Positions 3 through 30,704 are shown, counted from the first letter of the stretch. The stretch is 49,625 bases of DNA from an uncultured bacterium (GCA_965371575.1 CBDUYZ010000001.1:1-49625); one strand, 5' to 3'. Notes: generated by a model from the sequence alone, not told the origin. A program made the numbers and translations.

Positions 3-1121
3 ATCCTCGAGGGACCGCAGGGAGCGGAAATCAAGGTGGGCGGAAAGACCGTCCTGAATTTCTGCGCCAACAACTACCTGGGCCTGGCCGCGGATCAGCG
101 GGTCGTGGAGGCGGCCCGCCGCACCCTGACCCAGTGGGGTTACGGCCTCAGTTCGGTGCGGTTCATCTGCGGAACGACAACCCTGCACAAGCAACTGGAG
201 CGTGAACTGAGCGATTTCCTCGGCACCGAGGACACCATCCTCTACGCAGCCTGTTTCGACGCCAACGGCGGGGTGTTCGAACCCCTGCTGGACAAGGACA
301 GCGCCATCATCACGGACCAGCTCAACCACGCCTCGATCATCGACGGCGTGCGGTTGGCCAAGGCCCGGCGGTTCATCTATAACCACGCGGACATGGACGA
401 CCTCGAGACCCAGCTGAAGGATGCCCAGGGCGCCGAATTCCGCCTGGTCGTCACCGACGGAGTTTTCTCCATGGACGGCCATCTGGCGCCGCTGCCGGAA
501 ATCTGCGACTTGGCCGAGAAGTACGAGGCCATGGTCCTGGTCGACGACAGCCACGCCACGGGCTTCACCGGTCCTACCGGCCGGGGTACGCACGAGAAGT
601 TCGGCGTTATGGATCGGGTGGACATGATCACCACCACCCTCGGCAAGGCCCTGGGCGGCGCGCTGGGTGGCTGCACGAGCGGCCGCCGGGAGATCATCCA
701 ATGGCTGCGGCAGAAGAGTCGGCCCTACCTGTTCAGCAACTCGCTGCCCATGATGATCTGCGGGGCGACTCTCGAGGTATTGAAGATCCTGCGCGAGGAT
801 CCCGGCCCGTTGAAGACCCTGGCCAGAAATCAGCTGCGGTTGCGGGGCGGACTGCGCGATCTCGGCTTCGACGTGGATGAAGGCGATCACCCCATCATCC
901 CGGTGCATTTCCGCAACCATGACAATGACGCCATCGTGGCCCAGGGCATGGCGGCCGATCTGCTGGACGAAGGCATCTACTGCATCGGGTTCAGCTTTCC
1001 GGTCGTGCCGCGGGGACAGGCGCGGATCCGCCTGCAGACCTCGGCGGCCCACAGCGACGCCCACGTGGACAGGTGTCTGGAAGCCTTCGCGACGGTGGGC
1101 CGGAAGCACGGCGCCATCTGA
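3..1121 (+). CDS. kbl: glycine C-acetyltransferase / 2-amino-3-ketobutyrate CoA ligase (5' partial; frame open to window edge)
   Basis: The reading frame has no stop from nt 3. Motifs [37 protein letters not shown] and TTLGKALGG fit class-II PLP aminotransferases of the Kbl/BioF family. The [10 protein letters not shown] block is Kbl-like. Confidence 0.8.
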
Positions 1122-1286
1122 TTTGTCTGTGGCAGATATCTTGTCGAAATGGTGCCGGCCGTTTTCAAGCATGGCCGGGGCGTCGGGGTCGGGTTGTCCA
1201 CCTCAGCGGCGTTGATCATCCGGCACCGTGTGGGCCAAGATCTTCCGAGAATGATCCGGGTTATCAATGTTGAGATTACAAATCCC

Positions 1287-1316
1287 ACCTTCCGGGAGGG
1301 TAATCTCTTTTTTTTT
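1287..1316 (+). terminator. weak candidate intrinsic terminator after kbl
   Basis: Short stem ACCTTC/GAGGGT (one G.U) with a 3-nt loop. A T9 run at 1308-1316 follows after a 6-nt gap. It lies about 165 nt downstream of the kbl stop. Confidence 0.3.
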
Positions 1317-1686
1317 AACAGTTTTTTTAAAAATATATATTTCTGTCCGATTTTACGAGAAAGGACAGTATTTTGATGGGATTATAATTGTGTAGAAACA
1401 AACAACATCAGAAATTTTTTTTCCACTCATAGGTAACTGATTGAATAACCGTGAATTGTCATGTTTTTGTCATGTGCCCCGTGACCACACTGTCTGGCCA
1501 GGGAGGAGGCGCGGCAGGACAGTCTTTTAATCCAAGGGAGTTATACGGGGAGGTGCTGGAAAAATATTTCGTTGATCCAAGACGAACTGGACCGATAGGA
1601 TTACCATGACAATTAAATAACCGCATCGAATAATGAAATAACAATGGGCGCGACCAGTGGCGCCTGATCGAAGGGTTGCTGAAGCG

Positions 1687-2682
1687 ATGAATCCCCACCG
1701 TACCTTCAGCCGGATATTGATGGTTCCGTTGGCACTAGCCTTGCTACTGGCTTTGCTGCTGTCGGCCGCCGCTGCGGGTGAGGCTCCGATCCGCATCCCG
1801 TTTACGGTGTACGGCATCGACGCTGCCCGACCGTTCAAGGCGCCGCGGGGGCTGTTTTGCGACCACGGCCAGGACGAGATCCTGGTCGCTGATCCCGGCA
1901 GCAGCCGGGTGATTATTTTCGACGGCGAGGGGTGGCCCAAGTACGAATTCATCCATTGGATCGAGCGCGACGGCGAACGTCTGCAGGGTGAGCCATGCGC
2001 CGTGGCGGTGACTCCTGCCGGCAACATTTTCTTGGTTGATGTGCTGAGTCCGGATCTTTCCATCCTGGATTTCCGTGGACAGCCTCTCAACCGCCTGACT
2101 CCGGACGAACTGCTTCCCGGGGAGGATGAGGTGACACTGTCTGCCTGCCTGGCGGCGGGACCGGAAGGCCACATTTACGCAGTCGGCCATTCATCCGGGG
2201 GCCACAGCCTCATCGAGATGATGCCCAGCGGCGAAGTTGTGGCCAGGGTTCCTCTCGGGCAGACCGACGATCTGGTGCAGGTCACGGGTCTTGCCGTCGA
2301 TGCGCAACGGATCTACGTGTCCGACCTGTCCGCCGCGGCCTGTGTGCAGGTATTCGATCGCCAGGGCCGGCGGGAATTGGCCTTCGGCATCCACGACGCC
2401 GGGTGGGGCAACTTCTCCCTGCCGGCGTCCATCGCCGTGACTTCGGAGGGGCATATGTGGGTGGTCGACCAGATTCGACAAATCGTCAATCATTTCGACG
2501 CCGAGGGTCACTTCCTCGGCTTCATAGGTGGCAGCGGGTTCGGCCCCGGCTCCATGAAATATCCCTGCGCCGTCGCAACTGACCGGACGGATCGGGTCAT
2601 GGTGCTGGAAAAGGTCGGACGGCGGCTCCAGGCTTTTGTCCTGCCGGAAGGGGGTGGTCCGGCCGGGAAAGCCGGTGCCTGA
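1687..2682 (+). CDS. secreted NHL-repeat beta-propeller protein
   Basis: ATG 1687 gives a signal peptide MNPHRTFSRILMVPLALALLLALLLSAAAAGEA. The body has repeated ~45-aa blades of the type P.G...D.....V.D....RV..FD..G, e.g. GLAVDAQRIYVSDLSAAACVQVFDRQG and SIAVTSEGHMWVVDQIRQIVNHFDAEG. The alternative GTG start at 1657 is less likely. Confidence 0.7.
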   Translation: MNPHRTFSRILMVPLALALLLALLLSAAAAGEAPIRIPFTVYGIDAARPFKAPRGLFCDHGQDEILVADPGSSRVIIFDGEGWPKYEFIHWIERDGERLQGEPCAVAVTPAGNIFLVDVLSPDLSILDFRGQPLNRLTPDELLPGEDEVTLSACLAAGPEGHIYAVGHSSGGHSLIEMMPSGEVVARVPLGQTDDLVQVTGLAVDAQRIYVSDLSAAACVQVFDRQGRRELAFGIHDAGWGNFSLPASIAVTSEGHMWVVDQIRQIVNHFDAEGHFLGFIGGSGFGPGSMKYPCAVATDRTDRVMVLEKVGRRLQAFVLPEGGGPAGKAGA

Positions 2683-2736
2683 TAGATTTGAACCAAGCGT
2701 TAGTCGTATACCAGCAACCCATGCGGAGGTTATTCA

Positions 2737-3720
2737 GTGAAAAAGCTACTCATCCTTACAGTCCTGGTACTTGTGATCGCTTTTGCCGGCGTGGCCATTG
2801 CCGGCGACTTTCACTCCGGATCATCCCTGATCTGCTCGCAGTGCCACATAATGCACGCCAGCCAATCCCACAGCTACGTGGCCAATCAAGCTTTTACACC
2901 AGCTGTTCTTACTCCCCACGTGCGCCTGCTGAAGGAAACAGCCAACGATCTCTGTCTGTCCTGCCACGATGGCAGCCCCTCAATCACCGATGTCTTCGAA
3001 ATTCCTTCCGACGGCGTCGTGCGTGCTGCCGGCGGGTTGAACAACGCGGGCACCGTGGCTGGATTGTACCACCAGGACAATGGTCATTCCCTGGGTTCGA
3101 TCGACCAGGCGCCGGGCGGTACCTTCGAAAACACGGCGGGCCTGAATTGCACAGACTGCCATAATGCGCACGGCTACGCGGACGGCGTCGGTAACCCGTG
3201 GCGTAATCTCGTCGCGGTCGATGTCTCCAGCAATTTGTTTTACATGACCTACAACACCGGCGCCGTCGACCCTGCCTTCGACGTCACCCAGGCGGTCGTC
3301 CGCGACTACGTGTGGAGCAACTTGACGTTCAACAAGACCACCGCCTCTCCTTTGACGTCCGCCTATGCCGATTATTGCAAAGCCTGCCACACCGATTTCC
3401 ATGGTGCAGTCGGCTCGGCCGAGATCGGTGGTACTGTGGCCGCAGGTGACTTCATTCGCCACCCGGCGGCTGAGGTTCTCATCGGCGCCATTGGCGGTGG
3501 ACATTCGAATGCAGGGGTCTACGGCAGCCACGCCAACCAAGTGCTGGTCCAGATCGACGGTACGGATCTGACGCCGTCCTGCTTCAGCTGCCACAAGGGC
3601 CACGGCAACCAGAACCCCTTCGGTCTCATCTTCATGGAAGGTGGCGGGGCGGCGGTTGACGAAGAGGGCGATGGCGGCGCCGGGGTCCAGGACCTCTGCG
3701 GCCAGTGCCACGTGCAGTAA
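2737..3720 (+). CDS. secreted hexahaem c-type cytochrome
   Basis: GTG start preceded by GGAGG, and signal peptide MKKLLILTVLVLVIAFAGVAIAG. There are six CXXCH motifs: CSQCH, CLSCH, CTDCH, CKACH, CFSCH and CGQCH. The last sits at the extreme C-terminus. Confidence 0.9.
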   Translation: MKKLLILTVLVLVIAFAGVAIAGDFHSGSSLICSQCHIMHASQSHSYVANQAFTPAVLTPHVRLLKETANDLCLSCHDGSPSITDVFEIPSDGVVRAAGGLNNAGTVAGLYHQDNGHSLGSIDQAPGGTFENTAGLNCTDCHNAHGYADGVGNPWRNLVAVDVSSNLFYMTYNTGAVDPAFDVTQAVVRDYVWSNLTFNKTTASPLTSAYADYCKACHTDFHGAVGSAEIGGTVAAGDFIRHPAAEVLIGAIGGGHSNAGVYGSHANQVLVQIDGTDLTPSCFSCHKGHGNQNPFGLIFMEGGGAAVDEEGDGGAGVQDLCGQCHVQ

Positions 3721-3758
3721 TTATTTGGCGATAACGCTTTTCAGCAGTTGCGCTTGAA

Positions 3759-3782
3759 TGGGATGGGGGTGTTCCCCCATCC
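3759..3782 (+). terminator. GC-rich hairpin between the two small cytochrome genes (attenuator or weak terminator)
   Basis: Perfect 10-bp stem GGGATGGGGG / CCCCCATCCC with loop TGTT, followed by TGATTCTT, which is only a weak U-tract. Confidence 0.4.
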
Positions 3783-3933
3783 CTGATTCTTGGCGGGTCA
3801 GGCCCAAAGCTAGGCGATCGCCATCCTTATTGTTTGGTATTTAACAATCCTCCGGGACTGTGATAAAGTCATGATGCATATCGCGCCCCCTGCGTACAGG
3901 GCATCGACAAAAATTTGTTTCCGGAGAAAGATC

Positions 3934-5094
3934 ATGCTCATTCGCTTACGACTGTTTCGGGCAGGATTCATCACAGGCCTGCTCCTGGTCGCGGTAACGC
4001 CGGACCGGATTCCCGCCCAGATCCCCGGTACACATGACGATCCGCAGTATGGAGTCAATAGGGTGGTTACGGTCCCGTCCACACGCGGCTCCTGCGTGCA
4101 ATGTCACGATACGCATGCCATGGAGAGCGGTGCGGTGACCGGCGTGGAACCGGTCCTGTTCCGCGCCAACGAAAATGGCCTCTGCTTCGATACCTCGGGT
4201 GTTGGGGGATGTCACAACGAACCGGCTGTCAACTACCCGTTGCTCGATACGGAGTTCATGCCGGAATTCTCGCCATATCCCGGTTACCCCGAGGCCAACG
4301 CCGGCGGTGATTATACCTACGGCGTGGAAATGCGTGGACGTTGGCCGGGTTCCAGTGTCTACGAGAACAGTGGTCAGTACCTGGGCCGCGATTTCTCACC
4401 CCACTACATCGACAGCGATATGCCCCAGCAGGACAGCCAGGGCGCGGGTATGTGCCTGAACTGCCATTCTCCCCACGACACGGACAACCCGTTCGACCAG
4501 CTGACCGCAATGTACACAAACATCGGCGGACACGCCGATTTCGGCACTCCGCCGAACCAGCAGCTGTGTTTCGATTGCCACGGGCCCGACGGGCCTGCCG
4601 GCATGAACGGTTCCGGCAGGCTGATCGCCGACTATTTCGACGAGAGCGTGAATCCCGGGACGGCCGGTCACCAGATCCGGCGCAATTCCGAGATCGCCCT
4701 TTCCTGGCCGGCCTCGGTCCAGGTCGGGGACAAGCTGCCCTGCTACCTTTGTCACAATCCCCACGGCTCCCGGGGAGCCAGCGGTGCTTCTCCCAATACC
4801 TTCGTGCTCAACGACGCCCGCCCGGGTTGGGACGGCATATTGGACCCCACGGGAAGTGCCCTCGATTCCCGGGCCGTGTGTTTCGGGTGTCACATTCCGT
4901 CCGACGGTGTGCCGGGCTCGCGCGTAGTGATGGGGATCGTCATGAACACCATCCCCAGCAAGGGTGCCCATAAAACGTCCGCCGCCCAGAATTGTGCCAA
5001 AACTCACGGTGACTTATACGACACGCCTACGAGCATCAACATCCACAACATTACCACCAAATCCGCTTTGAGCCCGGAAGAATTCTGGAAATGA
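3934..5094 (+). CDS. secreted pentahaem c-type cytochrome (plus one non-canonical CX8CH candidate site)
   Basis: ATG 3934 is preceded by GGAGAAAG, and the hydrophobic leader is MLIRLRLFRAGFITGLLLVAV. CXXCH motifs: CVQCH, CLNCH, CFDCH, CYLCH, CFGCH. The extra site is CFDTSGVGGCH. The stop overlaps the next start (ATGA at 5091-5094). Confidence 0.85.
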   Translation: MLIRLRLFRAGFITGLLLVAVTPDRIPAQIPGTHDDPQYGVNRVVTVPSTRGSCVQCHDTHAMESGAVTGVEPVLFRANENGLCFDTSGVGGCHNEPAVNYPLLDTEFMPEFSPYPGYPEANAGGDYTYGVEMRGRWPGSSVYENSGQYLGRDFSPHYIDSDMPQQDSQGAGMCLNCHSPHDTDNPFDQLTAMYTNIGGHADFGTPPNQQLCFDCHGPDGPAGMNGSGRLIADYFDESVNPGTAGHQIRRNSEIALSWPASVQVGDKLPCYLCHNPHGSRGASGASPNTFVLNDARPGWDGILDPTGSALDSRAVCFGCHIPSDGVPGSRVVMGIVMNTIPSKGAHKTSAAQNCAKTHGDLYDTPTSINIHNITTKSALSPEEFWK

Positions 5095-6752
5095 CCAGTG
5101 TTTGGCGCAACCGGTCGCTCGGGTCTTTCAATCTCCGCTTTTTCCCGCTTTCCCTTTTCCTGTGGTGTGTTTTGGCCGGGTTACCCCTTGCAGCCGAAGC
5201 GTCCCAGACTTCCGGGCGCATCCGTCTGAACTACCACGAGTCCACCATCAGGGGAGACGTATCCAGCCAACTTTTTCAGGAATACCGTGTCTCGAGCCAG
5301 GACCGCATCTTCGGTTCCAATATGCTTCGTCTCGATCTGCGCTGGGATCGCATCGTCGACTACGCCTATCCTCAGGCTGTCGATCGACCGGTCTTGCGCG
5401 CCACGCTGACCGGGCTGGCCTATGACTTCACCCTGCGTTACACTCCTTCCCAGTACGCTACGCCCGCGGGACGGGTGACGGGCTCCAAACTGGAGGGGCT
5501 ACAGGCCGCCTGGCGGTTCCAACATGATGGTTTGCCCGGCCTGAGACTGGAATATCGCGATGACAAGCGACACCAGGCCCAGTTCAATTTCAACACCTTT
5601 TCGTCGGTGGCCCGGATGCGGTTGGCCGAGTTGGATCATCGGGTGGGGATGCTTCGCTTCGGGGCTTCCTATCGCCAGAACGACAACACCAGCACAGCCG
5701 CCACCGCTGGTGACCGGACTGCCGGGACGACCACCCTGAGGGTAGTGGTGGACAAGGCCGTCACGCCCGCCTTGCGCGTCAGCCTCGGGGGTGACGTCCA
5801 GCGGACCGAGGTTTCGCAAGATCCATCCCCGGACACCGTCAGCCGCACCCGCAATCTGCGTGGCAGCGCGGTCATGAGATTGACCCCCCGGCTGCGGATC
5901 GGTGTTACCGGGTTTTTCCGGGAAATGCTCAACGAGGGTGGAGGTCGTCCGTCCCTGCTTGACGTGAATCGGACCTTCTCGACACGCGCCGTTTTCATAC
6001 CGACGGAGGAACTGGATCTGAGCCTTCAGCGTGAAATCAGGGATCTGAACCGGCCGGCGGGCTATTCCTACTACGACGTCCTGCGGATGCAGGCGATCTA
6101 TTCAGGACGGTTGCGCAGAGGATTGCGCGCCCGCCTGACCGGCATGAAATACGTGACTATCAAGACACAGAACGCAGGTACTCCCGCCGATGCCACCGAC
6201 CTCACCCTGCATTTCCAACTCTACCGTCGGACAACGGCCCGGGCTTCGCTGACGTACAACCGGCAACAGCACCGCGATAGTGAATTCCTGAGCCGTCACG
6301 CCGTGAACAAGGTCGCCGAGGTGAAGTCCCAGCTGACCCGGCGACTGCTGGTCAGGCTCGATTACCGGGGATCCCAGACCTCCAGAGCCTTCGAGTTCCT
6401 TGAGATTGACTCCCACAACTACTCCGCGAATCTCAACTACACCAATTCGGGGGGATTCTCTTTGTCCGGGAGCGTGCGAAAGTCGATATTGAAGGAAGAG
6501 GAAAACAGGAGCCAGACCTTCTTCGGCTTGAACATGGCCGGCCGTCTTACAGCGAAATTTACCTTCAATCTGGACGGCACCTGGACCCAACACACGGTTT
6601 CCGAACTGGGTGAGCGCGCCTCGGGCTACAATGCCCGGCTGTATTATCGTTTCAGCAACAGGACTTTCTTGACGGCAAACTACCAGACCTCCGAACGGGA
6701 TGGTGAGAGAGAAAGCGACTCCTTCGGAGCATCTTTTCAGACCGCATTCTGA
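5091..6752 (+). CDS. outer-membrane beta-barrel protein (porin-like partner of the cytochromes)
   Basis: Signal peptide ...FLWCVLAGLPLAAEASQ. The whole length shows alternating hydrophobic/polar beta-strand periodicity with Y/N/R-rich hairpins (YSANLNYTNSGG, LLVRLDYRGSQ, YNARLYYRFSNR). The C-terminus ...SFGASFQTAF ends in Phe, the usual OMP signature. There is no CXXCH. Confidence 0.7.
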   Translation: MTSVWRNRSLGSFNLRFFPLSLFLWCVLAGLPLAAEASQTSGRIRLNYHESTIRGDVSSQLFQEYRVSSQDRIFGSNMLRLDLRWDRIVDYAYPQAVDRPVLRATLTGLAYDFTLRYTPSQYATPAGRVTGSKLEGLQAAWRFQHDGLPGLRLEYRDDKRHQAQFNFNTFSSVARMRLAELDHRVGMLRFGASYRQNDNTSTAATAGDRTAGTTTLRVVVDKAVTPALRVSLGGDVQRTEVSQDPSPDTVSRTRNLRGSAVMRLTPRLRIGVTGFFREMLNEGGGRPSLLDVNRTFSTRAVFIPTEELDLSLQREIRDLNRPAGYSYYDVLRMQAIYSGRLRRGLRARLTGMKYVTIKTQNAGTPADATDLTLHFQLYRRTTARASLTYNRQQHRDSEFLSRHAVNKVAEVKSQLTRRLLVRLDYRGSQTSRAFEFLEIDSHNYSANLNYTNSGGFSLSGSVRKSILKEEENRSQTFFGLNMAGRLTAKFTFNLDGTWTQHTVSELGERASGYNARLYYRFSNRTFLTANYQTSERDGERESDSFGASFQTAF

Positions 6753-6786
6753 TGGATGCCGGGAGTCACAATATGAGGAAGGAAAT

Positions 6787-7365
6787 ATGGCCAAGTCATT
6801 GAAATCTGCACTAGTCCTCTGGACTGCGGCGCTCTGCACCGTTGCCGGTTGCAGTTCGCCTCCCGTTTTCATCGAACCGGCGGCGGACCTCGACTTCTAC
6901 GAGCGGGTTGCGGTCACACCCTTCTGGGCCTCCAGTGCTGATCGGTCCGCCAGCGACCAGGTCACTGACGCTTTCGTGACGGCCCTGATGATTTCCGAAA
7001 AATACGAGGTCGTCGAGCCCGGGCTCTTTCGGCACCTTTTGGCGGAAATTGCCGACCAAGCCAGTTCCACCCATCGCGGACTGACCCCCCAGCAGGTTCA
7101 GGAATTGGGTACGAAGGCCGAGGTGCAGGCTGTCTTCGAGGGTACGATCCTGACCTACGAGATGACCCGAATCGGCCAGAACCAGTACCCTCTCATCTCG
7201 GTGGAACTGAGAATGCTCGACGCCCAGACCGGTCGGCTGGTCTGGGCGATGACACTGACCCGCAAGGGGGGGCCCGGGTTCCCCTTCTTCGGCTTCGGCC
7301 AGACGCGCACACTGCCCGAACTGGCCGCCAAGGTCGTGGACGAGTTCGTCGCGGGGGTGCCCTGA
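6787..7365 (+). CDS. lipoprotein, non-haem (LpoB/PelC/TolB-N-like sequence pattern)
   Basis: ATG 6787 follows GAGGAAGGAAAT. Lipobox LCTVAG|C. The motif VAVTPFWASSADRSASDQVTDAFVTALMISEKYEVVEP resembles the VAVLPF.N.S pattern of small OM-associated lipoproteins. The fold assignment is inference. Confidence 0.65.
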   Translation: MAKSLKSALVLWTAALCTVAGCSSPPVFIEPAADLDFYERVAVTPFWASSADRSASDQVTDAFVTALMISEKYEVVEPGLFRHLLAEIADQASSTHRGLTPQQVQELGTKAEVQAVFEGTILTYEMTRIGQNQYPLISVELRMLDAQTGRLVWAMTLTRKGGPGFPFFGFGQTRTLPELAAKVVDEFVAGVP

Positions 7366-7366
7366 C

Positions 7367-7960
7367 ATGGCGGCCCGAAGGCGTCCATTCATGAGCTGGC
7401 CATTGCCGGTCCTGTTGCCGCTGTTTGGCGCGCTGGTCCTGCTGGCGGGCTGCGGGGCGGGTGTTCGTCACCACGCGGTACATGATTTCCCGGGCGACCG
7501 GCCTTATCGCTTGGCGCTGTTGCCCCTGACCAACCTGACTACTGATCCAAGCGCCGCCGACGTGCTCAGTTCCGCTCTGGCGGTCGAGTTGCTGGGCGTA
7601 CCGGAGTTCGCCGTCGTGGACGTGGTCGCGGTCAACTCGGTCCTCAGCCGCCATCGGATCCGCTATGCGGACCGGATGAACACGGAGCAGTTCATGGTCC
7701 TGGGCCGGGAACTGGCTGTCGACGGTGTTCTGGTCGGCGCCGTCTATGCGTTTGAATACCGCCAGGAGCAGGAAGGCCCTGTTCCCCTGGTCTCCATGCA
7801 CGCGCGGATCATAGACGTGGCCGATGGCCGTATCCTCTGGGTGGCGGAGCAGACCCGCACCGGTACGGATGGTGAATTCATCTTGGGCATCGGTTTTGAA
7901 AAATCCCTTACGAGGCTTGCTTCCCGCGTGGCCGGCGAGATCGTGGAGACCTTGCGCTGA
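7367..7960 (+). CDS. lipoprotein, paralogue of the preceding gene
   Basis: Lipobox VLLAG|C. LALLPLTNLTTDPSAADVLSSALAVELLGVPEFAVVD parallels the motif of the 6787 gene. The start lies 1 nt after the previous stop. The alternative ATG at 7391 is also compatible with the signal peptide. Confidence 0.65.
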   Translation: MAARRRPFMSWPLPVLLPLFGALVLLAGCGAGVRHHAVHDFPGDRPYRLALLPLTNLTTDPSAADVLSSALAVELLGVPEFAVVDVVAVNSVLSRHRIRYADRMNTEQFMVLGRELAVDGVLVGAVYAFEYRQEQEGPVPLVSMHARIIDVADGRILWVAEQTRTGTDGEFILGIGFEKSLTRLASRVAGEIVETLR

Positions 7961-7974
7961 AAGGTGATATTCTG

Positions 7975-8451
7975 ATGAAGGTCAAATCCTGGTTGTGGGT
8001 CCTTTTCCTGCTGACTGTGCCTGTCCCGGGTCTAGCCGAAACCGTGAAGGCTCCGGCAGTGGAATCCCCGCACGAGCCGACGACCATTACCGTGATCGTC
8101 AGGCATCGGGTGGCGGCGTCCTTTGCGGACACTCTGGAAGTCGTCTGGGGGACCGGTGAACAGTACTGGATCGGTGATACCGAATTCAGTCTGGAAATTT
8201 CACGGTTCGTTGCCGATTTCGGCATCAGCCAGACCGGAGAAGTCATCGAGCGCAGTTCTGAAGCCCACAATCCGGCCTGCGAGGTCGTGATCTACAACGA
8301 GGGCATCGAGGAGGATCGGGTCTGGGCGTTCTTCGGCACAGGGTCTCCGCATTTCCGGCGCGAGTCCATGCTGGCCGTGGACATGATCTCCTTCCCCTGG
8401 CGTGGTTCCGTGCTGACCGAGCCGATTCCCCGGAAGGATGAAGTGAAATGA
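7975..8451 (+). CDS. small secreted hypothetical protein
   Basis: Signal peptide MKVKSWLWVLFLLTVPVPGLA|ETV. No haem motif. The stop overlaps the start of the 42-haem gene (ATGA at 8448-8451). Confidence 0.55.
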   Translation: MKVKSWLWVLFLLTVPVPGLAETVKAPAVESPHEPTTITVIVRHRVAASFADTLEVVWGTGEQYWIGDTEFSLEISRFVADFGISQTGEVIERSSEAHNPACEVVIYNEGIEEDRVWAFFGTGSPHFRRESMLAVDMISFPWRGSVLTEPIPRKDEVK

Positions 8452-11400
8452 GCCGCAGCAAGCTGGTCCGTTTCAATCCGTTCTGGCTCTCAGCCATGGT
8501 CCTACTGCTGGCCATGTCTTGCGCTGATCCAGGCCTGGCTGCCAAGAAACGACGTGAGTGTCTCGACTGCCACAAGAACATGAAGCAACTCAAGGAGTTG
8601 GCCCGGGTACATGAACCTTTCAACGAAGACAAGTGCCTTGATTGCCACCAGCGGCACGGGTTTGCCCAGAACCTGATCCTGAAGAGCGCCCCTCCGGAAT
8701 TGTGCGCCGAGTGTCACGCCGACCAGATGCCGAGCACCGAGGTGGCTTTCCCGCACGAGCCCGTCGCTCAGGGCTATTGCAACGCCTGCCACAACCCTCA
8801 TGCATCCGATAACTCGGCGCTCATCCGGGGCAGCACCCCGGGCGGCGCCTGCCTGCCCTGCCATCCGGTGGTCAAGGAAGCTCTCGACGGGGCGGCTGGC
8901 CACCAACCGTTCATGAACGGTGACTGCAGCGTTTGCCACAAGGCCCACGGCAGCGATCAGCCCGCTATTCTTGTTTCCCGACAGATCGACGTCTGCCTCG
9001 GGTGTCATGAAGGAATCGATCCGGTCAGCCACTTCCAAACCGGAGTGAACGACCAATCCTGCACCGCTTGCCACGATGCCCACCTCGCCACGAAAAACAA
9101 TATGTTGCGGAGTGATGCCCATCCGCCCTTTGCCGAAGGTGACTGTAGCGCCTGTCACCAGGCGAACGAGGGCAGAGCCCTTGAAGCACCTGCCGTCGCG
9201 GATCCCGCCCTCTGTTTCGAATGCCACGAGGAAATTGAAGACAGAACAGGGCTCCTTCATCCCCACGACCCGGCCCTCGACGGGTGCCTGGACTGCCATG
9301 ACGCCCATCGTTCGGGATTCCCCTTCCTGCTGACAGGAGCTCAGCGCGATGTTTGTCTGGACTGCCATGACGATCCTGCCAGCGGGGAAAATATCGGCGT
9401 GGTGCACGGGCCTGTCGTGGATGGTGACTGCGCGGCGTGTCACGATCCGCATGGCGGTGATCGCGATCTGATGCTCACGGCCGAGGGAGACGCCCTCTGT
9501 GCCCGGTGCCACGAGGATCTTCTGACAGCTGCCCGACAGGCGGTTGTTCCCCATGAGGCCCTGGACGACGGTTGCGCTGCCTGCCATCGGCCCCATGCTT
9601 CGACTGAGCCCGGCCTCCTGATCTTCAACCAGTTGGTGTTGTGTGGCGAGTGCCACGACGAAATCATCTCCGGCGCAGGAGACCATCAGCAACACGCGCC
9701 TTTCCAGGCCGGAGCCTGCCGGGAGTGCCACAATCCCCACGGGTCGGACCGCAGAGCCATGCTCGTCAAAACGGATCCGGCGGAAAATTGTGTGCGTTGC
9801 CACGCCGGTCTGGCCGCAGGTCTCAAGTCGGGCGAGGGCCACGTTCCATTCGCCGACGGGGATTGCGCCGACTGCCACGCGCCGCATTACTCGAGCCAGC
9901 AGCCGGGCCTTCTGGTCGAGCCGGTCAACACCCTGTGTGCCACATGCCACGATGATCTGGAGGGGAAGCTTTCCCGCCCGCATGTACATACGGCCATCCT
10001 CAGGGGCGCCTGCACAGACTGCCACGACCCGCACGACGCCGAGGCATCGCTGCTGCTCGTGGCCGAAACGGAGCTTTGTCTTGGTTGCCATCCGGACGTC
10101 GCGGCCGCCGTCGAGTTGGCGGTGGTGCATGAACCCGCCCGAGGCGGCGCCTGCCTGACCTGTCATGACCCTCACGGCTCGGATCAGCCCATGGGCCTGG
10201 CGGTCCCGGTGGCCCGACTCTGTGCCGAATGCCATTCCGTCGTCGACGAGGCGTTCGCCACCAGCCACGGCGGTCTGGCCGACGAAGACTCCCAGTGCAC
10301 GACCTGTCACAACCCGCACGGTTCCACCGATCCCATGCTGCTGAACCGGGTCATCCACTCGCCCTTCGCGGACAAGGACTGCGCTTCCTGTCACGATGAC
10401 TTCACCCTGGAGCAGTTCGCCGAGGAGACGGCCGGCCTCTGCGGCGAGTGTCACGACCAGCCCGACGAGTTCGCCGGCAAGAAACAGATTCACGCACCGG
10501 TTGCCGAGGGCGACTGTACGGTATGTCACGACCCCCACACCGCCCGCGGGGACCTGCTCCTGCGTGCGGATGTACCGGAGCTGTGCGCCGAGTGCCATGA
10601 CGACATCGTTAATCCCACATCCGGCGTCAAACAGCACCGCCCGGTGGAACTGGGCGGATGTCTGGACTGTCACGAATCGCACGCGGGCGATTTCCGCTCC
10701 CTGCTCAGGGATTCAGGCGACAACCTGTGCCTGGGCTGCCATGACGCGCTGAAACAACGCCTGGAAACCGGGGTCCGCCACGACCCTGTGGCCGAGGGCG
10801 ATTGTACGGCCTGCCACAACGGGCATGATTCGGCTGAGGCTGCTCTGCTCAACAAGCGCGTGCACCTGCTGTGCGCCGACTGTCACGAAGTGGCAGGTGA
10901 GGACATCATGAGCGCACACAGCGGCTTCGAGGTGGAGGGGACCGACTGCGTGACATGCCACGATCCCCATGTGTCGACCGATGACAGGGGCAAGTTCCTG
11001 CGGACCGTCAGGCACGATCCGTTCGCCGACGGCGATTGTTCATCCTGCCACGTACCGGGTAGTATTCGTGTTTCCCTGCCGGTGCCTCAGCTCTGCCTGG
11101 AATGCCACGACGAGTTCGCGGAAATCCTGGAGTCCGAGGGGCTCCACGCGGCCCTGAAGAACGAGAAATCCTGCATATCCTGTCATGCTCCCCACGCAGG
11201 TTTCGCGGGGCTGATCAACCGTTCGTCACAGAAGGAGACCTGCCTGCGTTGCCACGATCGCCAGGGCTACGAGGGCGAGTTCCGGCACGAGCCGGTCGAG
11301 GAGGCCTGTACGAATTGCCACGATCCTCACGCCGGTGAGAAGCCGTTTTTGCTGACCCTCGACATCATGGAGCTCTGCCTGCAGTGCCACGAAGTCCATC

Positions 11401-11564
11401 TCCATCCCGTGGGTGAGGAATACCAGGATCCCCGTACCGGCGGTCCGTTGACCTGCGTCAGCTGCCATACGCCCCATTCTGCGGCCGAGAAGTACCTGCT
11501 GTCCCATGAGAAGTCGCGCGCCCTGTGTGTCCAGTGCCACGTGGGCACCATGGGACCTCATTGA
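8448..11564 (+). CDS. giant multihaem c-type cytochrome, 42 CXXCH motifs (tandem paired-CXXCH / c7-like units)
   Basis: I counted 42 CXXCH motifs in the 1038-aa translation. They lie in about 21 repeats of ~48 aa with the pattern C..CH-(D/N)PH...L-C..CH.....H.P...G(D)-C..CH. The N-terminal leader ends LLAMS|C, a possible lipobox. Confidence 0.95.
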   Translation: MSRSKLVRFNPFWLSAMVLLLAMSCADPGLAAKKRRECLDCHKNMKQLKELARVHEPFNEDKCLDCHQRHGFAQNLILKSAPPELCAECHADQMPSTEVAFPHEPVAQGYCNACHNPHASDNSALIRGSTPGGACLPCHPVVKEALDGAAGHQPFMNGDCSVCHKAHGSDQPAILVSRQIDVCLGCHEGIDPVSHFQTGVNDQSCTACHDAHLATKNNMLRSDAHPPFAEGDCSACHQANEGRALEAPAVADPALCFECHEEIEDRTGLLHPHDPALDGCLDCHDAHRSGFPFLLTGAQRDVCLDCHDDPASGENIGVVHGPVVDGDCAACHDPHGGDRDLMLTAEGDALCARCHEDLLTAARQAVVPHEALDDGCAACHRPHASTEPGLLIFNQLVLCGECHDEIISGAGDHQQHAPFQAGACRECHNPHGSDRRAMLVKTDPAENCVRCHAGLAAGLKSGEGHVPFADGDCADCHAPHYSSQQPGLLVEPVNTLCATCHDDLEGKLSRPHVHTAILRGACTDCHDPHDAEASLLLVAETELCLGCHPDVAAAVELAVVHEPARGGACLTCHDPHGSDQPMGLAVPVARLCAECHSVVDEAFATSHGGLADEDSQCTTCHNPHGSTDPMLLNRVIHSPFADKDCASCHDDFTLEQFAEETAGLCGECHDQPDEFAGKKQIHAPVAEGDCTVCHDPHTARGDLLLRADVPELCAECHDDIVNPTSGVKQHRPVELGGCLDCHESHAGDFRSLLRDSGDNLCLGCHDALKQRLETGVRHDPVAEGDCTACHNGHDSAEAALLNKRVHLLCADCHEVAGEDIMSAHSGFEVEGTDCVTCHDPHVSTDDRGKFLRTVRHDPFADGDCSSCHVPGSIRVSLPVPQLCLECHDEFAEILESEGLHAALKNEKSCISCHAPHAGFAGLINRSSQKETCLRCHDRQGYEGEFRHEPVEEACTNCHDPHAGEKPFLLTLDIMELCLQCHEVHLHPVGEEYQDPRTGGPLTCVSCHTPHSAAEKYLLSHEKSRALCVQCHVGTMGPH

Positions 11565-27647: not shown

Positions 27648-29533
27648 GTGCGCCCGGCAGGGCGCACACTCTTGGAGGTGCAAGTCCTCTACAGACCCGA
27701 CAGGGGGAACTGTTAGCTTAACGGCAAGGGCTGCCACCGCGAGGTGGGGTCTGAAGGAAGCCGCAGGCAAAGCACTGGCCCGACGAACAGGAATCGCATA
27801 CGAGGCGGTCGTGCTGGGTAAGGAGTCCAATCTCTCCAAAGCCCAATACCTGTACGGAAAGCACGGACGTATATGCGGCGGGCATAAGTGTGAAGGAGTG
27901 TGCGCATTACCCGGGGAGATCTGTCGATTTGCCTTGTGCTAGGTCCGTCGAGAGGCGGTCCGATGGATCGACAGAAGTCAGCCGAGGGCATATTAGGTCG
28001 TTCGATCCGACTGAAGGCCCGAACATGAACATGGAGCAGGAGACCTGACTCTCGATGGCTAACCAAGACACAGACCGTTCGGCTGGGATGCCGGGCACCA
28101 CTCCGGAAGGTAGCGGGCGGAACCCGCGAGAGCATGGGGCTGGGGTGTCGGTTGCTGCGATGAGTTGGGACCATTTCCGCTCGGAGACAACGCAACTTAT
28201 GGATGCGGTGATCGAACGCGAGAACATGATCGAGGCCTTGCGCCGAGTGGAACGGAACAAGGGAGCGGCCGGGGTCGACAAGATGCCGGTCAGCGAACTT
28301 CGCCCTTACCTGAAGGAGCATTGGTCTCGGATCAAGGAAGAGTTGCTGGTTGGCAGCCATCAGCCGTCGGCGGTACGGGAAGTCATGATCCCGAAGCCCG
28401 GCGGCAGAGGGGTGCGCAAGCTTGGCATCCCAACGGTGGTTGACCGTCTGATCCAGCAAGCTCTGCATCAAGTGTTGAGTCCGATCTTTGACCCCTTCTT
28501 CAGTGAACACAGCTACGGGTTCCGCCCCGGTCGCAGCGCACATCAGGCCGTGCTTCAGGCACGGCAGTATGTGTCCGCTGGACGACGGTGGACCGTGGAC
28601 ATGGATCTGGAGAAGTTCTTCGACAACGTGAACCACGACCTCTTGATGTCGCGGGTCGGTCGAAGAGTTGGAGATCGGCGGGTCCTTGCGATGATCCGTC
28701 GTTACTTGCAGGCTGGTACGATGGCCGGAGGCGCTGAGTCTCCACGACAGGAAGGCACGCCGCAAGGTGGCCCCCTGTCGCCGCTGCTGTCGAACATCCT
28801 GCTGGACGATCTGGACAAGGAACTGGAGAGACGTGGCCATGCGTTTTGTCGTTACGCCGATGACTGCAACATCTATGTGCGGTCCCGGCGGGCGGGCAAG
28901 CGGGTGCTATCGTCACTCACCAGCTACCTGAAGGAAGAGTTGAAGTTGAAGGTGAACCGAGCCAAGAGCGCGGTGGATCGACCGTGGCAGCGCAAGTTCC
29001 TCGGCTACTCGATGACCTCACATAAGCAGCCGCGACTGAAAGTCGCTCCGGCCAGTGTGCAACGTCTGAAAGACAAGCTGAGGGTCGAGTTCCGCCGGGG
29101 CCGTGGCCGCAATCTGGGCCGGTTTATCACCGAAGACCTGCAACCACTTCTGAAGGGTTGGATCAACTACTTCCGGTTGGTGGAGGTTAAGAGAATCTTC
29201 GAGGAACTGGATGGCTGGATCCGTAGAAAACTGCGGAACATCCTCTGGCGACAATGGAAGAGGAATTGGACCCGAGCCCGGAAACTGATGCAATTTGGGT
29301 TGGACGAGGCTCGCGCGAAGCGCTCATCCACCAACGGGCGGGGCCCGTGGTGGAACTCCGGGGCTTCGCATATGAACCAAGCCATCTCGAAGGACTTCCT
29401 TGATCGTCTTGGTCTTGTGAATCTGCTGAATGAGTTACGTAGACTTCAATATGTGTCATGAACCGCCGTGGTACGTGAACCGTTTGCCCGGTGGTGTGGG
29501 AGGGTGAGGTCGCAAGGCCACACCCTACCCGAT
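27648..29533 (+). mobile_element. group II intron (bacterial class C-like), about 1.9 kb
   Basis: The 5' end is GUGCG at 27648, with an RT/maturase ORF inside. After the ORF stop there is a domain V-like hairpin at 29463-29494. Its positions 2-4 are CGC with a G.U wobble at the middle G, and it has a 2-nt bulge on the 3' strand. A domain VI-like hairpin follows at 29498-29529 with a GCAA loop and an unpaired A at 29527. The proposed 3' end is ...GAU at 29533, uncertain by about 10 nt. Confidence 0.8.
28055..29461 (+). CDS. group II intron reverse transcriptase/maturase (no endonuclease domain evident)
   Basis: RT blocks: RVERNKGAAGVDK, IPKPGGRGVRKLGIPTVVDRLIQQA, SYGFRPGRSAHQA, DLEKFFDNVNHD, GTPQGGPLSPLLSNILLDDLD, and RYADDCNIYV (YADD). 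The maturase X region is FLGY...GWINYFR. The real start may be ATG 28160 (MSWDHF..., 433 aa). Confidence 0.92.
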   Translation: MANQDTDRSAGMPGTTPEGSGRNPREHGAGVSVAAMSWDHFRSETTQLMDAVIERENMIEALRRVERNKGAAGVDKMPVSELRPYLKEHWSRIKEELLVGSHQPSAVREVMIPKPGGRGVRKLGIPTVVDRLIQQALHQVLSPIFDPFFSEHSYGFRPGRSAHQAVLQARQYVSAGRRWTVDMDLEKFFDNVNHDLLMSRVGRRVGDRRVLAMIRRYLQAGTMAGGAESPRQEGTPQGGPLSPLLSNILLDDLDKELERRGHAFCRYADDCNIYVRSRRAGKRVLSSLTSYLKEELKLKVNRAKSAVDRPWQRKFLGYSMTSHKQPRLKVAPASVQRLKDKLRVEFRRGRGRNLGRFITEDLQPLLKGWINYFRLVEVKRIFEELDGWIRRKLRNILWRQWKRNWTRARKLMQFGLDEARAKRSSTNGRGPWWNSGASHMNQAISKDFLDRLGLVNLLNELRRLQYVS

Positions 29534-30605: not shown

Positions 30606-30634
30606 TTGACCCGGATCCCATTCGGTCCTATAAT
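30606..30634 (+). promoter_or_regulatory. near-consensus sigma70 promoter of the C25 peptidase gene
   Basis: TTGACC (30606-11), an exactly 17-nt spacer, then TATAAT (30629-34). This argues against the TTG 30606 and ATG 30633 ORF starts. Confidence 0.6.
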
Positions 30635-30704
30635 GAAAGTACGCCCAACCGCGCCGTACCTGCCCCTGATCGGCCAATCAGCAACTTCTGTCCGGGAGAC
30701 CAGA

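What the first reader, a model, noticed from the sequence alone, without database searches (positions are those of the whole stretch)
1687..11564. Non-canonical porin-cytochrome gene cluster: NHL propeller, 6-haem, 5-haem, 553-aa beta-barrel, two non-haem lipoproteins, small secreted protein, 42-haem cytochrome
Eight same-strand genes are tightly packed. Their junctions are ATGA at 5091, a 1-nt gap at 7366 and ATGA at 8448. Every product carries a signal peptide or lipobox. Together they encode 53 canonical CXXCH sites plus a large barrel ending in Phe. Known porin-cytochrome modules (MtrCAB, OmaB/OmbB/OmcB, ExtABCD types) pair a barrel with a periplasmic and a lipoprotein cytochrome. Here the lipoproteins next to the barrel are haem-free paralogues, and the dominant cytochrome is a ~1000-aa repeat polymer. 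This may be an undescribed architecture for trans-outer-membrane electron transfer; the direction of transfer (metal reduction or oxidation) cannot be inferred.
Basis: partly seen in the sequence, partly recalled or inferred. Interest (0 to 1): 0.8.

Follow-up and report, generated by a model that had tools for sequence, protein, structure and literature searches.

The report
OmcS-type cytochrome nanowire assembly cluster
This eight-gene block is a stripped-down, divergent relative of the Geobacter "omcS companion" cluster, which builds and exports conductive cytochrome filaments; it sits in an uncultured sediment bacterium and carries an unusually long 42-haem periplasmic cytochrome.

Summary
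Eight tightly packed same-strand genes (1687-11564) encode 6 + 5 + 42 = 53 CXXCH sites, a 553-aa barrel ending in Phe, two paralogous haem-free lipoproteins and a small secreted protein. The order is conserved in seven independent loci, down to 22% barrel identity.

The "undescribed architecture" reading is only partly right. The 6-haem protein belongs to the OmcS nanowire family (profile-profile 99.3%, E 2e-20, full length). The block matches the Geobacter omcS/osc cluster in the same gene order:
- NHL propeller = GSU2505.
- Barrel = OscE (weakest link, 91-94%).
- Lipoproteins = OscF and OscG (PelC-like).
- The 42-haem protein = OscI/GSU2495 (26 haems in Geobacter; 31% identity from the N-terminus, E 2e-52).

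Best reading: a cytochrome-filament export and wiring module. An OmcS-like subunit leaves through a 28-strand barrel fitted with PelC-like lipoproteins, and an MtrA-like 42-haem wire feeds it.

It differs from Geobacter: there is no PPIase (OscH) or YncE propeller (OscD), the OscG is single-domain, the barrel lacks the insert, there is an extra 158-aa protein, and the haem count is fixed at 42. I call it a new variant of a known kind, of moderate interest. Filament formation and the direction of electron flow are untested.

The parts
1687..2682 (+). Secreted NHL-repeat beta-propeller, counterpart of Geobacter GSU2505 (the gene next to omcS)
   Evidence: Pfam NHL 1.1e-9. BLASTP against the Geobacter 312-aa protein upstream of omcS gives 24% identity over 319 aa, E 1.5e-17. 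GSU2505 is annotated as an NHL repeat protein beside omcS. The NCBI gene call starts 11 codons later (320 aa).
2737..3720 (+). OmcS-family hexahaem cytochrome (B), 327 aa; the candidate filament subunit
   Evidence: It has 6 CXXCH. BLASTP against OmcS 6EF8 gives E 3e-10. The profile of 6 orthologues against a profile of 60 OmcS homologues gives hhalign 99.3%, E 2.2e-20, over 307 columns, full length, with all six haem motifs collinear. The predicted mature N-terminus is GDFHSG..C..CH.MH, and the equivalent of OmcS His16 is invariant.
3760..3783 (+). GC-rich 10-bp stem-loop directly after gene B (attenuator or mRNA-stabiliser candidate)
   Evidence: Found by the terminator-like scan. Stem-loops at the same position, four with a similar GGGATGG..CCATCCC sequence, occur in L001, L002, L013 and L014. 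Strong stem-loops also follow omcS in Geobacter L016 and L019.
3934..5094 (+). Second, more divergent OmcS-like cytochrome (C); 5 CXXCH plus an invariant CX8CH
   Evidence: hhalign of the C-family against the B-family gives 97.2%, E 3.2e-11, over 232 columns. C84..C93-H94 are invariant and align to haem 2 of B. The direct match to the OmcS profile is weak (47%). An alternative start lies at 3871.
5091..6752 (+). 28-strand outer-membrane beta-barrel, probable OscE (GSU2499) counterpart
   Evidence: AF2 pLDDT 89.4 with 28 strands. The top Foldseek hit is MtrB 6r2q_B (E 2e-11, TM 0.51), followed by FimD and LptD. hhalign against Geobacter OscE gives 91-94%, E 1e-6 to 1.5e-7. The family has only 16 representatives among 1.84 billion proteins.
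6787..7365 (+). PelC/LpoB/CsgG-fold lipoprotein E, OscF (GSU2498) counterpart
   Evidence: It has a lipobox (VAGC). Pfam CsgG 1.2e-8. BLASTP against Geobacter OscF gives 35% over 177 aa, E 5e-24. The family profile hits PelC 9h80_C at 7e-13, 5t11 at 5e-11 and GNA1162 4hrv at 6e-8.
7367..7960 (+). Paralogous lipoprotein F, single-domain counterpart of the tandem-domain OscG (GSU2497)
   Evidence: It has a lipobox (LAGC) and is 30% identical to E. It matches both halves of the Geobacter 392-aa lipoprotein: 25-26%, E 1e-10, 4e-9 and 2e-6. The public gene call starts at 7391.
7975..8451 (+). Conserved 158-aa secreted protein G, no detectable family; cluster-specific accessory
   Evidence: Present at the same position in all seven loci. 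It has a lipoprotein-type signal in the two most distant loci, L014 and L015. No Pfam or PDB match and no Geobacter counterpart.
8448..11564 (+). 42-haem MtrA-like periplasmic cytochrome H, OscI (GSU2495) homologue
   Evidence: It has 42 CXXCH and 90 His, arranged as 21 di-haem units. NCBIfam DmsE family gives 10 stretches, 2.6e-132. PDB MtrA 6r2q_A matches at 5e-16. BLASTP against Geobacter OscI from the N-terminus gives 31% over 387 aa, E 2.3e-52. The count of 42 haems is conserved in 5 of 6 orthologues.

Best explanation
The block is an osc-type ("omcS companion") cytochrome-nanowire module in an uncultured bacterium. The organism is probably Krumholzibacteriota or a related FCB-group lineage.

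Proposed mechanism (only the sequence facts are shown; the rest is inferred):
1. All products are exported by Sec, and the cytochromes are haem-loaded in the periplasm (signal sequences shown; the rest inferred).
2. The OmcS-family hexahaem B, possibly with its divergent paralogue C, is the abundant structural subunit. A conserved stem-loop after its gene fits a major-subunit gene. B crosses the outer membrane through the 28-strand barrel (OscE-like).
3. The two PelC-like lipoproteins (OscF/OscG-like) sit on the periplasmic face of the barrel, by analogy with the PelC ring under the PelB porin. B polymerises outside the cell into a haem-stacked filament through an inter-subunit His-haem bond.
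4. The NHL propeller (GSU2505-like) acts as an assembly or anchoring factor.
5. The 42-haem MtrA-like cytochrome (OscI-like; about 33 nm if extended, my estimate) carries electrons across the periplasm from inner-membrane quinol oxidoreductases to the outer-membrane complex or filament base.

The direction of net electron flow cannot be read from the sequence.
For: Homology to the Geobacter cluster, gene by gene and in the same order:
- B against the OmcS family: hhalign 99.3%, E 2e-20, full length, six haem motifs collinear.
- NHL against the protein upstream of omcS: E 1.5e-17.
- Barrel against OscE: 91-94%.
- E against OscF: 35%, E 5e-24. F against both halves of OscG. H against OscI: 31%, E 2e-52, starting at the N-terminus.
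- The Geobacter loci have the same order.

Literature:
- The GSU2500-2493 block is linked to nanowire maturation and secretion, and GSU2495 has 26 haems (PMC12977616).
- OmcS-like genes have been noted in Krumholzibacteria (PMC7914226).

Other support:
- The lipoprotein profile hits PelC at 7e-13.
- The barrel has 28 strands and is MtrB-like in fold.
- Synteny is conserved in seven loci with unrelated flanks.
- The His that aligns with OmcS His16 is invariant. In OmcS one haem-5 ligand comes from the neighbouring subunit (PMC6584659). That this ligand is His16 is my own knowledge.
- A conserved stem-loop follows B, and one follows omcS.
- In relatives the cluster sits beside Rieske/cytochrome b/NapC-type genes or a cytochrome next to a 4Fe-4S ferredoxin-domain protein.
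Against: - No filament, localisation or expression data exist for this lineage.
- In Geobacter only OmcS itself, not its paralogues, is known to polymerise (PMC12977616). B is only about 24% identical to OmcS and about 100 aa shorter.
- The barrel-OscE link is the weakest (hhalign 91-94%, confident mainly over the first ~200 columns).
- Two Geobacter components with assigned roles are absent from the cluster in all seven loci: the PPIase OscH and the YncE-type propeller OscD.
- I could not read the primary osc paper (not held). The letters OscD-H are assigned from gene order plus the three published anchors.
- The PelC analogy rests on sequence-profile similarity; the AF2 model of E failed (pLDDT 46.6).
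Confidence: 0.62

Rival explanations
1. It is a classical porin-cytochrome conduit (MtrAB-like). The 42-haem MtrA-like H threads the 28-strand barrel permanently. B and C are non-polymerising surface or periplasmic partner cytochromes. The lipoproteins only stabilise the complex.
For: H matches the DmsE/MtrA family ten times (2.6e-132) and MtrA 6r2q_A (5e-16). The barrel's best structural match is MtrB. The haem count is fixed at 42 in distant orthologues, which suggests a length constraint. PCC3 is a precedent for periplasmic cytochromes of 21-27 haems paired with a porin.
Against: B is clearly OmcS-family, and the lipoproteins are PelC-like, i.e. export-associated. The Geobacter homologues OscE, F and G are assigned to secretion of OmcS. 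No lipoprotein MtrC/OmcA-type decahaem is present. The barrel has no sequence similarity to the MtrB/PioB family.
Confidence: 0.25
2. It is a periplasmic electron store (capacitor) or periplasmic redox chain with no dedicated trans-outer-membrane function, and the barrel and lipoproteins serve an unrelated transport role.
For: H is peptide-minimised and bis-His (90 His for 42 haems), like storage or relay cytochromes. None of B, C or H has a lipobox or a T9SS C-terminal domain.
Against: The strict co-inheritance of the barrel, the lipoproteins and the cytochromes is hard to reconcile with unrelated functions. It holds in seven loci with different flanks and in Geobacter.
Confidence: 0.08
3. 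It is a Pel-like exopolysaccharide export gate (PelC-like lipoproteins plus a porin) that happens to sit among cytochrome genes.
For: The lipoprotein profile hits PelC at 7e-13.
Against: The gene tables show no Pfam glycosyltransferase, deacetylase or TPR-porin (PelA, PelB, PelD-G) domains in the cluster or its conserved neighbours. The barrel has 28 strands and is MtrB-like, not a TPR-fused PelB-type porin. The partners conserved with it are cytochromes.
Confidence: 0.03

Closest known systems
Geobacter sulfurreducens omcS / osc (omcS-companion) cluster, GSU2505-GSU2493 (Shen et al. 2025, Cell Chem Biol; cited in PMC13194489 and PMC12977616)
   Same: The gene order and homology match: NHL protein, OmcS-family hexahaem(s), large outer-membrane barrel, LpoB/PelC-like lipoproteins, giant MtrA-like periplasmic cytochrome. 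One relative (L014) even has the sigma54 response regulator upstream, as Geobacter has GSU2506.
   Different: - No OscB (spermine-synthase-like), no OscD (YncE propeller) and no OscH (SurA-like PPIase) in the cluster.
- OscG is single-domain rather than tandem.
- The barrel is 529-561 aa against 718-749 aa, so it lacks an insertion of roughly 170-200 aa.
- There is an extra conserved 158-aa protein.
- OscI has 42 haems rather than 26.
- The OmcS-like subunit is about 100 aa shorter, and the second paralogue carries a CX8CH site.
- The host belongs to a different phylum-level lineage.
MtrCAB / MtoAB porin-cytochrome complexes (PDB 6R2Q)
   Same: A large barrel (28 against 26 strands) is the best structural match to MtrB. 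H is built of MtrA/DmsE-like units.
   Different: The barrel has no sequence similarity to the MtrB/PioB family. There is no MtrC/OmcA-type lipoprotein decahaem. H has 42 haems, not 10. PelC-like lipoproteins and an OmcS-like cytochrome are present.
PCC3 of Gallionellaceae/Sideroxydans (He et al. 2017; Hoover et al. 2023)
   Same: A porin is paired with a very long periplasmic multihaem cytochrome (21-27 haems) proposed to span the periplasm, plus further multihaem cytochromes.
   Different: [quoted passage not shown] No NHL protein, OmcS-like protein or PelC-like lipoproteins are described for it. I could not compare sequences here.
Uet cluster of Tenderiales/Gallionella (bioRxiv 10.1101/2022.05.06.490989)
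   Same: It has a predicted 28-strand barrel (UetC), NHL propeller proteins (UetH, UetI) and several multihaem cytochromes in one conserved block.
   Different: Uet has an undecahaem, a tetrahaem and three c7-type trihaems, a cupredoxin and a PPIase. No PelC-like lipoproteins or 42-haem protein are reported. I could not compare sequences here.
PelBC exopolysaccharide export gate (PelC; PDB 9H80, 5T10, 5T11, 5T0Z)
   Same: The small lipoproteins belong to the same sequence superfamily (profile E 7e-13) and are encoded next to an outer-membrane barrel. PelC forms a 12-mer ring under the porin (my knowledge; 9H80 and 5T11 hold 12 chains).
   Different: The cargo genes are cytochromes, not a polysaccharide pathway. 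There are two paralogous lipoproteins rather than one. The barrel is far larger than a PelB porin.

Membership tests
osc / omcS-companion nanowire cluster | An OmcS-family hexahaem cytochrome is encoded in the cluster | tested here: met
   B-family against OmcS-family profiles: hhalign 99.3%, E 2.2e-20, full length, six haem motifs collinear. Pairwise BLASTP against 6EF8 gives E 3e-10.
osc / omcS-companion nanowire cluster | An NHL-type propeller (GSU2505 homologue) lies adjacent to the OmcS-like gene | tested here: met
   24% identity over 319 aa, E 1.5e-17, against the Geobacter protein upstream of omcS. It occupies the same position.
osc / omcS-companion nanowire cluster | Channel components OscE, F and G: a large outer-membrane barrel followed by LpoB/PelC-like lipoproteins | tested here: met
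   E against OscF: 35%, E 5e-24. F against both halves of OscG: E 1e-10, 4e-9 and 2e-6. Barrel against OscE: hhalign 91-94%, E about 1e-7, which is the weakest link. The order barrel-lipoprotein-lipoprotein is identical. Which Geobacter gene carries which Osc letter is my inference from gene order and the published anchors oscC, oscI and oscJ.
osc / omcS-companion nanowire cluster | A giant periplasmic multihaem cytochrome OscI (GSU2495) lies downstream of the channel genes | tested here: met
   H against the first 400 aa of Geobacter OscI: 31% over 387 aa, aligned from residue 13 to residue 12, E 2.3e-52. H has 42 haems against 26.
osc / omcS-companion nanowire cluster | A prolyl-isomerase chaperone OscH (SurA-like) is in the cluster | tested here: not met
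   Geobacter has a 561-aa Rotamase_2/SurA_N protein between OscG and OscI. The window and all six related loci have the unrelated 157-165-aa protein G at that position, and no Rotamase hit appears in the cluster. A PPIase elsewhere in the genome cannot be excluded.
osc / omcS-companion nanowire cluster | A YncE-type beta-propeller OscD is in the cluster | tested here: not met
   Geobacter has a 483-492-aa YNCE protein. None is present here; the only propeller is the NHL protein.
OmcS filament-forming cytochromes | Polymerisation into haem-stacked filaments through an inter-subunit His-haem 5 ligand | not testable with these tools
   The His that aligns with OmcS His16 (CH-x-M-H) is invariant in six orthologues, which is compatible with polymerisation but not proof. 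OmcS paralogues in Geobacter are not known to polymerise.
MtrCAB-type porin-cytochrome | A MtrB/PioB-family barrel | tested here: inconclusive
   No Pfam MtrB_PioB hit and no PDB sequence hit. MtrB is nevertheless the top Foldseek match (E 2e-11, TM 0.51), with 28 against 26 strands.
MtrCAB-type porin-cytochrome | A surface lipoprotein decahaem (MtrC/OmcA family) | tested here: not met
   B and C have type-I-like signal sequences (read by eye), 6 and 5 CXXCH, and only sub-threshold OmcA/MtrC scores.
Pel polysaccharide export (PelBC) | PelC lipoprotein together with a TPR-porin PelB and Pel biosynthesis genes | tested here: not met
   PelC-like lipoproteins are present. No TPR-porin or glycosyltransferase is present in any of the seven loci.
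PCC3 and Uet clusters | Sequence homology of the porin and cytochromes to Slit_0867-0870 or UetA-J | not tested
The comparison is by published description only.

The most novel reading that the evidence does not exclude
The osc-type "secretion channel" is at the same time the electrical junction. A single 42-haem polypeptide of fixed length acts as a molecular ruler. [quoted passage not shown] That would make a continuous protein wire from the quinol oxidase to micrometres outside the cell. It would also define the minimal conserved core of cytochrome-nanowire machines (NHL, OmcS-like, barrel, two PelC-like lipoproteins, OscI), shared between Desulfuromonadia and an FCB-group phylum.
Probability: 0.22. 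Interest if true: 0.75.

Novelty: new variant of a known kind. Interest (0 to 1): 0.45.

Why it matters
Cytochrome nanowires are studied almost only in Geobacter, where redundancy and paralogy obscure which accessory genes are essential. This cluster shares six homologous components with Geobacter across a very large phylogenetic distance, and it lacks three others (OscB, OscD, OscH). That gives a natural minimal set, and so a testable hypothesis for the core export and wiring machine.

It also extends probable filament-based extracellular electron transfer to Krumholzibacteriota-like sediment bacteria, for which only FeGenie-type hits had been reported.

Two features bear on how electrons reach the filament base, which is still open in Geobacter: the PelC relationship of the lipoproteins, and the strictly conserved 42-haem length of the OscI homologue. 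Both suggest concrete structural tests.

Tried and rejected
1. Word-index protein searches with the barrel, alone and as a 19-sequence profile, returned only 4 proteins. The exhaustive representative search was needed to find 16.
2. phmmer and hmmsearch of B or its 6-sequence profile against the PDB found no OmcS, although BLASTP and hhalign show clear homology. A negative HMMER result on peptide-minimised cytochromes should not be trusted.
3. A metagenome scan with the barrel alignment failed because no stretch was conserved enough. A scan with Geobacter OscE found nothing.
I reached OscH and OscI through a more compact Geobacter locus instead, and only the first 400 aa of OscI were obtained.
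With 2 sequences it gave an unusable model (pLDDT 46.6), so no fold search was run on it.
6. E alone against the PDB gives PelC as the top hit, but not significantly (E 0.43). Only the family profile is significant.
7. A perfect sigma54 -24/-12 consensus at 1730-1745 lies inside the NHL coding region. Matches with up to 2 mismatches are no more frequent in the window than chance, so I did not treat it as a promoter.
8. Protein G has no Pfam, PDB or Geobacter match.
9. The primary osc paper could not be read.
10. Cluster look-ups gave no organism names for the window's proteins.

Full report
**1. Observation**

The eight ORFs exist as described, all on the + strand:
- NHL protein, 1687-2682.
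- 6-haem cytochrome B, 2737-3720.
- 5-haem cytochrome C, 3871 or 3934 to 5094.
- Barrel, 5091-6752 (553 aa, C-terminal ...SFQTAF).
- Lipoprotein E, 6787-7365.
- Lipoprotein F, 7367 or 7391 to 7960.
- Small protein G, 7975-8451.
- Cytochrome H, 8448-11564 (1038 aa).

CXXCH counts are 6, 5 and 42. These are the only CXXCH-bearing ORFs of 80 aa or more in the 49.6-kb window. The junctions are ATGA at 5091, a one-base gap at 7366 and ATGA at 8448.

All products start with a hydrophobic signal. E and F carry lipoboxes (VAGC, LAGC); the others look like type-I signals. I read this directly from the sequence and ran no predictor.

H is a regular array of 21 di-haem units of about 48 aa. It has 90 His for 42 haems, enough for bis-His ligation throughout. 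E and F are 30% identical paralogues.

The flanks are housekeeping genes: an aminotransferase upstream and EF-G downstream.

**2. Conservation**

The barrel family is rare. A word-index search found 4 proteins. An exhaustive HMMER scan of 1.84 billion representatives found 16, all 529-559 aa.

I fetched the contigs for relatives at 65, 57, 35, 28, 23 and 22% barrel identity. Every one long enough shows the same order: NHL, 6-haem, 5-haem, barrel, lipoprotein, lipoprotein, a protein of about 160 aa, and a cytochrome of about 1030-1085 aa. The flanking genes are unrelated.

Further points from these loci:
- The giant cytochrome has 42 CXXCH in five of the six orthologues and 41 in the sixth.
[quoted passage not shown] The window lacks it.
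- The closest named relative is a Candidatus Krumholzibacteriota MAG.

**3. What the parts are**

*Barrel.* AF2 gives a confident 28-strand barrel (pLDDT 89.4). Its best structural match is MtrB of the Mtr complex (E 2e-11, TM 0.51), followed by FimD, LptD and TonB-dependent receptors. It has no significant Pfam hit and no sequence match in the PDB.

*H.* It is made of MtrA/DmsE-like units (ten stretches, 2.6e-132). It matches chain A of 6R2Q at 5e-16. That chain is MtrA, although this PDB copy labels it "cystathionine beta-synthase" (my knowledge).

*B.* This is the decisive result. Its mature N-terminus (GDFHSG..C..CH.MH) and its CHTDFH...RHPA motif reminded me of OmcS. I verified the OmcS sequence against 6EF8 and then tested the link:
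- BLASTP gives 24% identity over the whole mature protein, E 3e-10.
- A profile of six B orthologues against a profile of 60 OmcS homologues gives hhalign probability 99.3%, E 2.2e-20, over 307 aligned columns from end to end, with all six haem motifs in register.
- phmmer and hmmsearch against the PDB missed this entirely.

*C.* It is a more divergent member of the same family (C against B: 97.2%, E 3e-11). An invariant C-x8-CH aligns with haem site 2 of B.

*E and F.* Their profile hits PelC at 7e-13 (9H80). It also hits 5T11, 5T10 and 5T0Z at 5e-11 to 7.5e-9 (that these are PelC is my knowledge), then GNA1162 and LpoB, with sub-threshold (E > 0.1) matches to CsgG.

*G.* It has no detectable relatives outside these clusters.

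**4. Link to a known system**

I used OmcS to fetch three Geobacter loci. The gene order there is:
1. Histidine kinase.
2. Sigma54 regulator.
3. NHL-like protein of about 315 aa (GSU2505).
4. OmcS.
5. OmcT (in two loci).
6. A 1017-aa spermine-synthase-like protein (in two loci).
7. An OmcS-like hexahaem (GSU2501 = OscC).
8. A YncE propeller.
9. A 718-749-aa outer-membrane protein ending in Phe.
10. A 199-aa GNA1162/LpoB-like lipoprotein.
11. A 392-aa tandem LpoB-like lipoprotein.
12. A SurA-like PPIase.
13. A large multihaem cytochrome.

Published statements fix oscC = GSU2501, oscI = GSU2495 and oscJ = GSU2494. They assign folding to OscH, secretion to OscE, F and G, and morphology to OscD (PMC13194489). 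GSU2495 has 26 haems, and the GSU2500-2493 block is linked to nanowire maturation and secretion (PMC12977616). By gene order this makes the propeller OscD, the barrel OscE, the lipoproteins OscF and OscG, and the PPIase OscH. That assignment is my inference.

Window proteins against these (the E-values are effectively pairwise):

| Window protein | Geobacter counterpart | Result |
|---|---|---|
| NHL | GSU2505-like | 24% over 319 aa, E 1.5e-17 |
| E | OscF | 35% over 177 aa, E 5e-24 |
| F | both halves of OscG | 25-26%, E 1e-10, 4e-9 and 2e-6 |
| H | OscI, from the N-terminus (AAKK..C.DCH) | 31% over 387 aa, E 2.3e-52 |
| Barrel | OscE | hhalign 91-94%, E 1e-6 to 1.5e-7 |

One distant relative (L014) even keeps the sigma54 response regulator upstream, as Geobacter has GSU2506. 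OmcS-type genes had already been flagged in a Krumholzibacteria MAG by FeGenie (PMC7914226).

**5. How it most likely works**

Shown: the homologies, the signal sequences, the 28-strand barrel model and the conserved order.

Inferred:
- B, perhaps with C, is the structural subunit of an OmcS-type filament. The His that aligns with OmcS His16 is invariant. In OmcS, one axial ligand of haem 5 is donated by the neighbouring subunit (PMC6584659). That this ligand is His16 is my knowledge.
- A GC-rich stem-loop sits directly after gene B at 3760-3783. It recurs at that position in four relatives, and one follows omcS in Geobacter. This fits a highly expressed major-subunit gene followed by less expressed assembly genes.
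- The wide barrel would let a folded, haem-loaded subunit or a haem rod pass. Simple barrel geometry gives a backbone diameter of about 5 nm for 28 strands (my estimate).
- The PelC-like lipoproteins would form a periplasmic collar, as PelC does under PelB.
- H would be about 33 nm long at roughly 0.8 nm per haem (my estimate from OmcS and MtrA geometry). That is long enough to bridge the periplasm.
- In relatives the cluster lies next to a Rieske/cytochrome b/NapC-type operon (L014), or next to a cytochrome and a 4Fe-4S ferredoxin-domain protein (L015). These are plausible inner-membrane electron donors or acceptors.
- The direction of electron flow is not inferable.

**6. Differences from Geobacter, and novelty**

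- The cluster lacks OscB, OscD and OscH in all seven loci.
- OscG is single-domain.
- The barrel is about 170-200 aa shorter (no insertion).
- An extra conserved 158-aa protein sits where the PPIase would be. It has a lipoprotein-type signal in the two most distant loci.
- OscI has 42 rather than 26 haems, with the number held constant across deep divergence.
- The barrel family is too divergent for HMMER to connect it to OscE.

I therefore class it as a new variant of a known kind. I could not read the 2025 primary paper. If it already lists such clusters, this would be merely a new member.

**7. Rivals**

- *A permanent Mtr-like conduit.* H sits in the barrel and B and C do not polymerise. 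This remains plausible at about 0.25, and it is compatible with a dual role of the barrel.
- *Pel-like polysaccharide export.* The gene tables show no Pfam glycosyltransferase or TPR-porin domains in any of the loci, which argues strongly against it.
- *A purely periplasmic store.* This does not explain the obligate linkage to the barrel and the lipoproteins.

**8. Limits**

- There are no expression, localisation or structural data.
- The barrel-OscE homology is moderate.
- The model of E failed.
- Only 400 aa of OscI were available.
- PCC3 and Uet were compared by description only.
- The taxonomy of the window is inferred from its closest relative.

Noticed in passing
window 27733-29461: A group II intron: Rfam D1-D4 domains at 27733-27904 and 27939-28019, with an intron-encoded reverse transcriptase/maturase ORF at 28055-29461 (RVT_1 6e-40, GIIM 2.5e-19). 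GC drops to 0.53-0.57 in this stretch.
   Followed up: partly
window 3934-5094 (cytochrome C): Besides its 5 CXXCH, C has an invariant C84-x8-C93-H94 that aligns with haem site 2 of the OmcS-like B, so it may be a sixth, non-canonical haem site. It also has an invariant C354...H358 near the C-terminus. That site is a full CGDCH in locus L014 but C-A-K-T-H here.
   Followed up: partly
window 1121-1686, compared with L001 5571-6701, L002 1673-2809, L010 5465-6616 and L013 5529-6707: Four relatives have an extra 7-haem, OmcS-like cytochrome of about 380 aa directly upstream of the NHL gene. The window has only a 565-bp AT-rich intergenic region there, so that gene is absent or lost.
   Followed up: partly
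window 1730-1745: A perfect match to the sigma54 -24/-12 consensus (TGGCAC-N5-TTGCT) lies inside the signal-peptide coding part of the NHL gene. Matches with up to 2 mismatches are not enriched in the window. Geobacter and locus L014 have sigma54 regulators beside the cluster, so this may deserve a look, but it is probably chance.
   Followed up: partly
L014 16532-21599 (- strand) and L015 9149-11235: In two distant relatives the cluster abuts likely inner-membrane redox genes. L014 has Rieske, split cytochrome b, a 417-aa multihaem cytochrome and a 683-aa NapC/NirT-family cytochrome. L015 has a 238-aa cytochrome next to a 4Fe-4S ferredoxin-domain protein. These are candidate quinol-pool connections for the 42-haem protein.
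   Followed up: no
L001 16723-19662: The Krumholzibacteriota MAG has a further 979-aa, 22-haem cytochrome just downstream of the giant cytochrome. It has faint-to-weak Pfam hits (marked 'hint, not finding' by the tool) to a T9SS-type C-terminal sorting domain (Por_Secre_tail) and FlgD_ig. If real, this would be a second, T9SS-dependent route for surface cytochromes in the same lineage.
   Followed up: no
window 30606-35153: A 1515-aa ORF with a Peptidase_C25 (gingipain-like) domain (2.7e-49). This fits an FCB-group organism.
   Followed up: no
Geobacter loci L016 18713-20869, L017 17284-19461, L019 14277-16526: The Geobacter barrel (OscE by my assignment) is 170-200 aa longer than the window's barrel family. 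The extra length appears to be a central insertion with no Pfam match. Its nature was not examined.
   Followed up: no
PDB 6r2q chain A (tool output): The chain that matches the 42-haem protein is labelled "Cystathionine beta-synthase" in this PDB copy. By entry, length and sequence family it is the decahaem MtrA of the Mtr complex, so the label is an annotation slip that could mislead.
   Followed up: no
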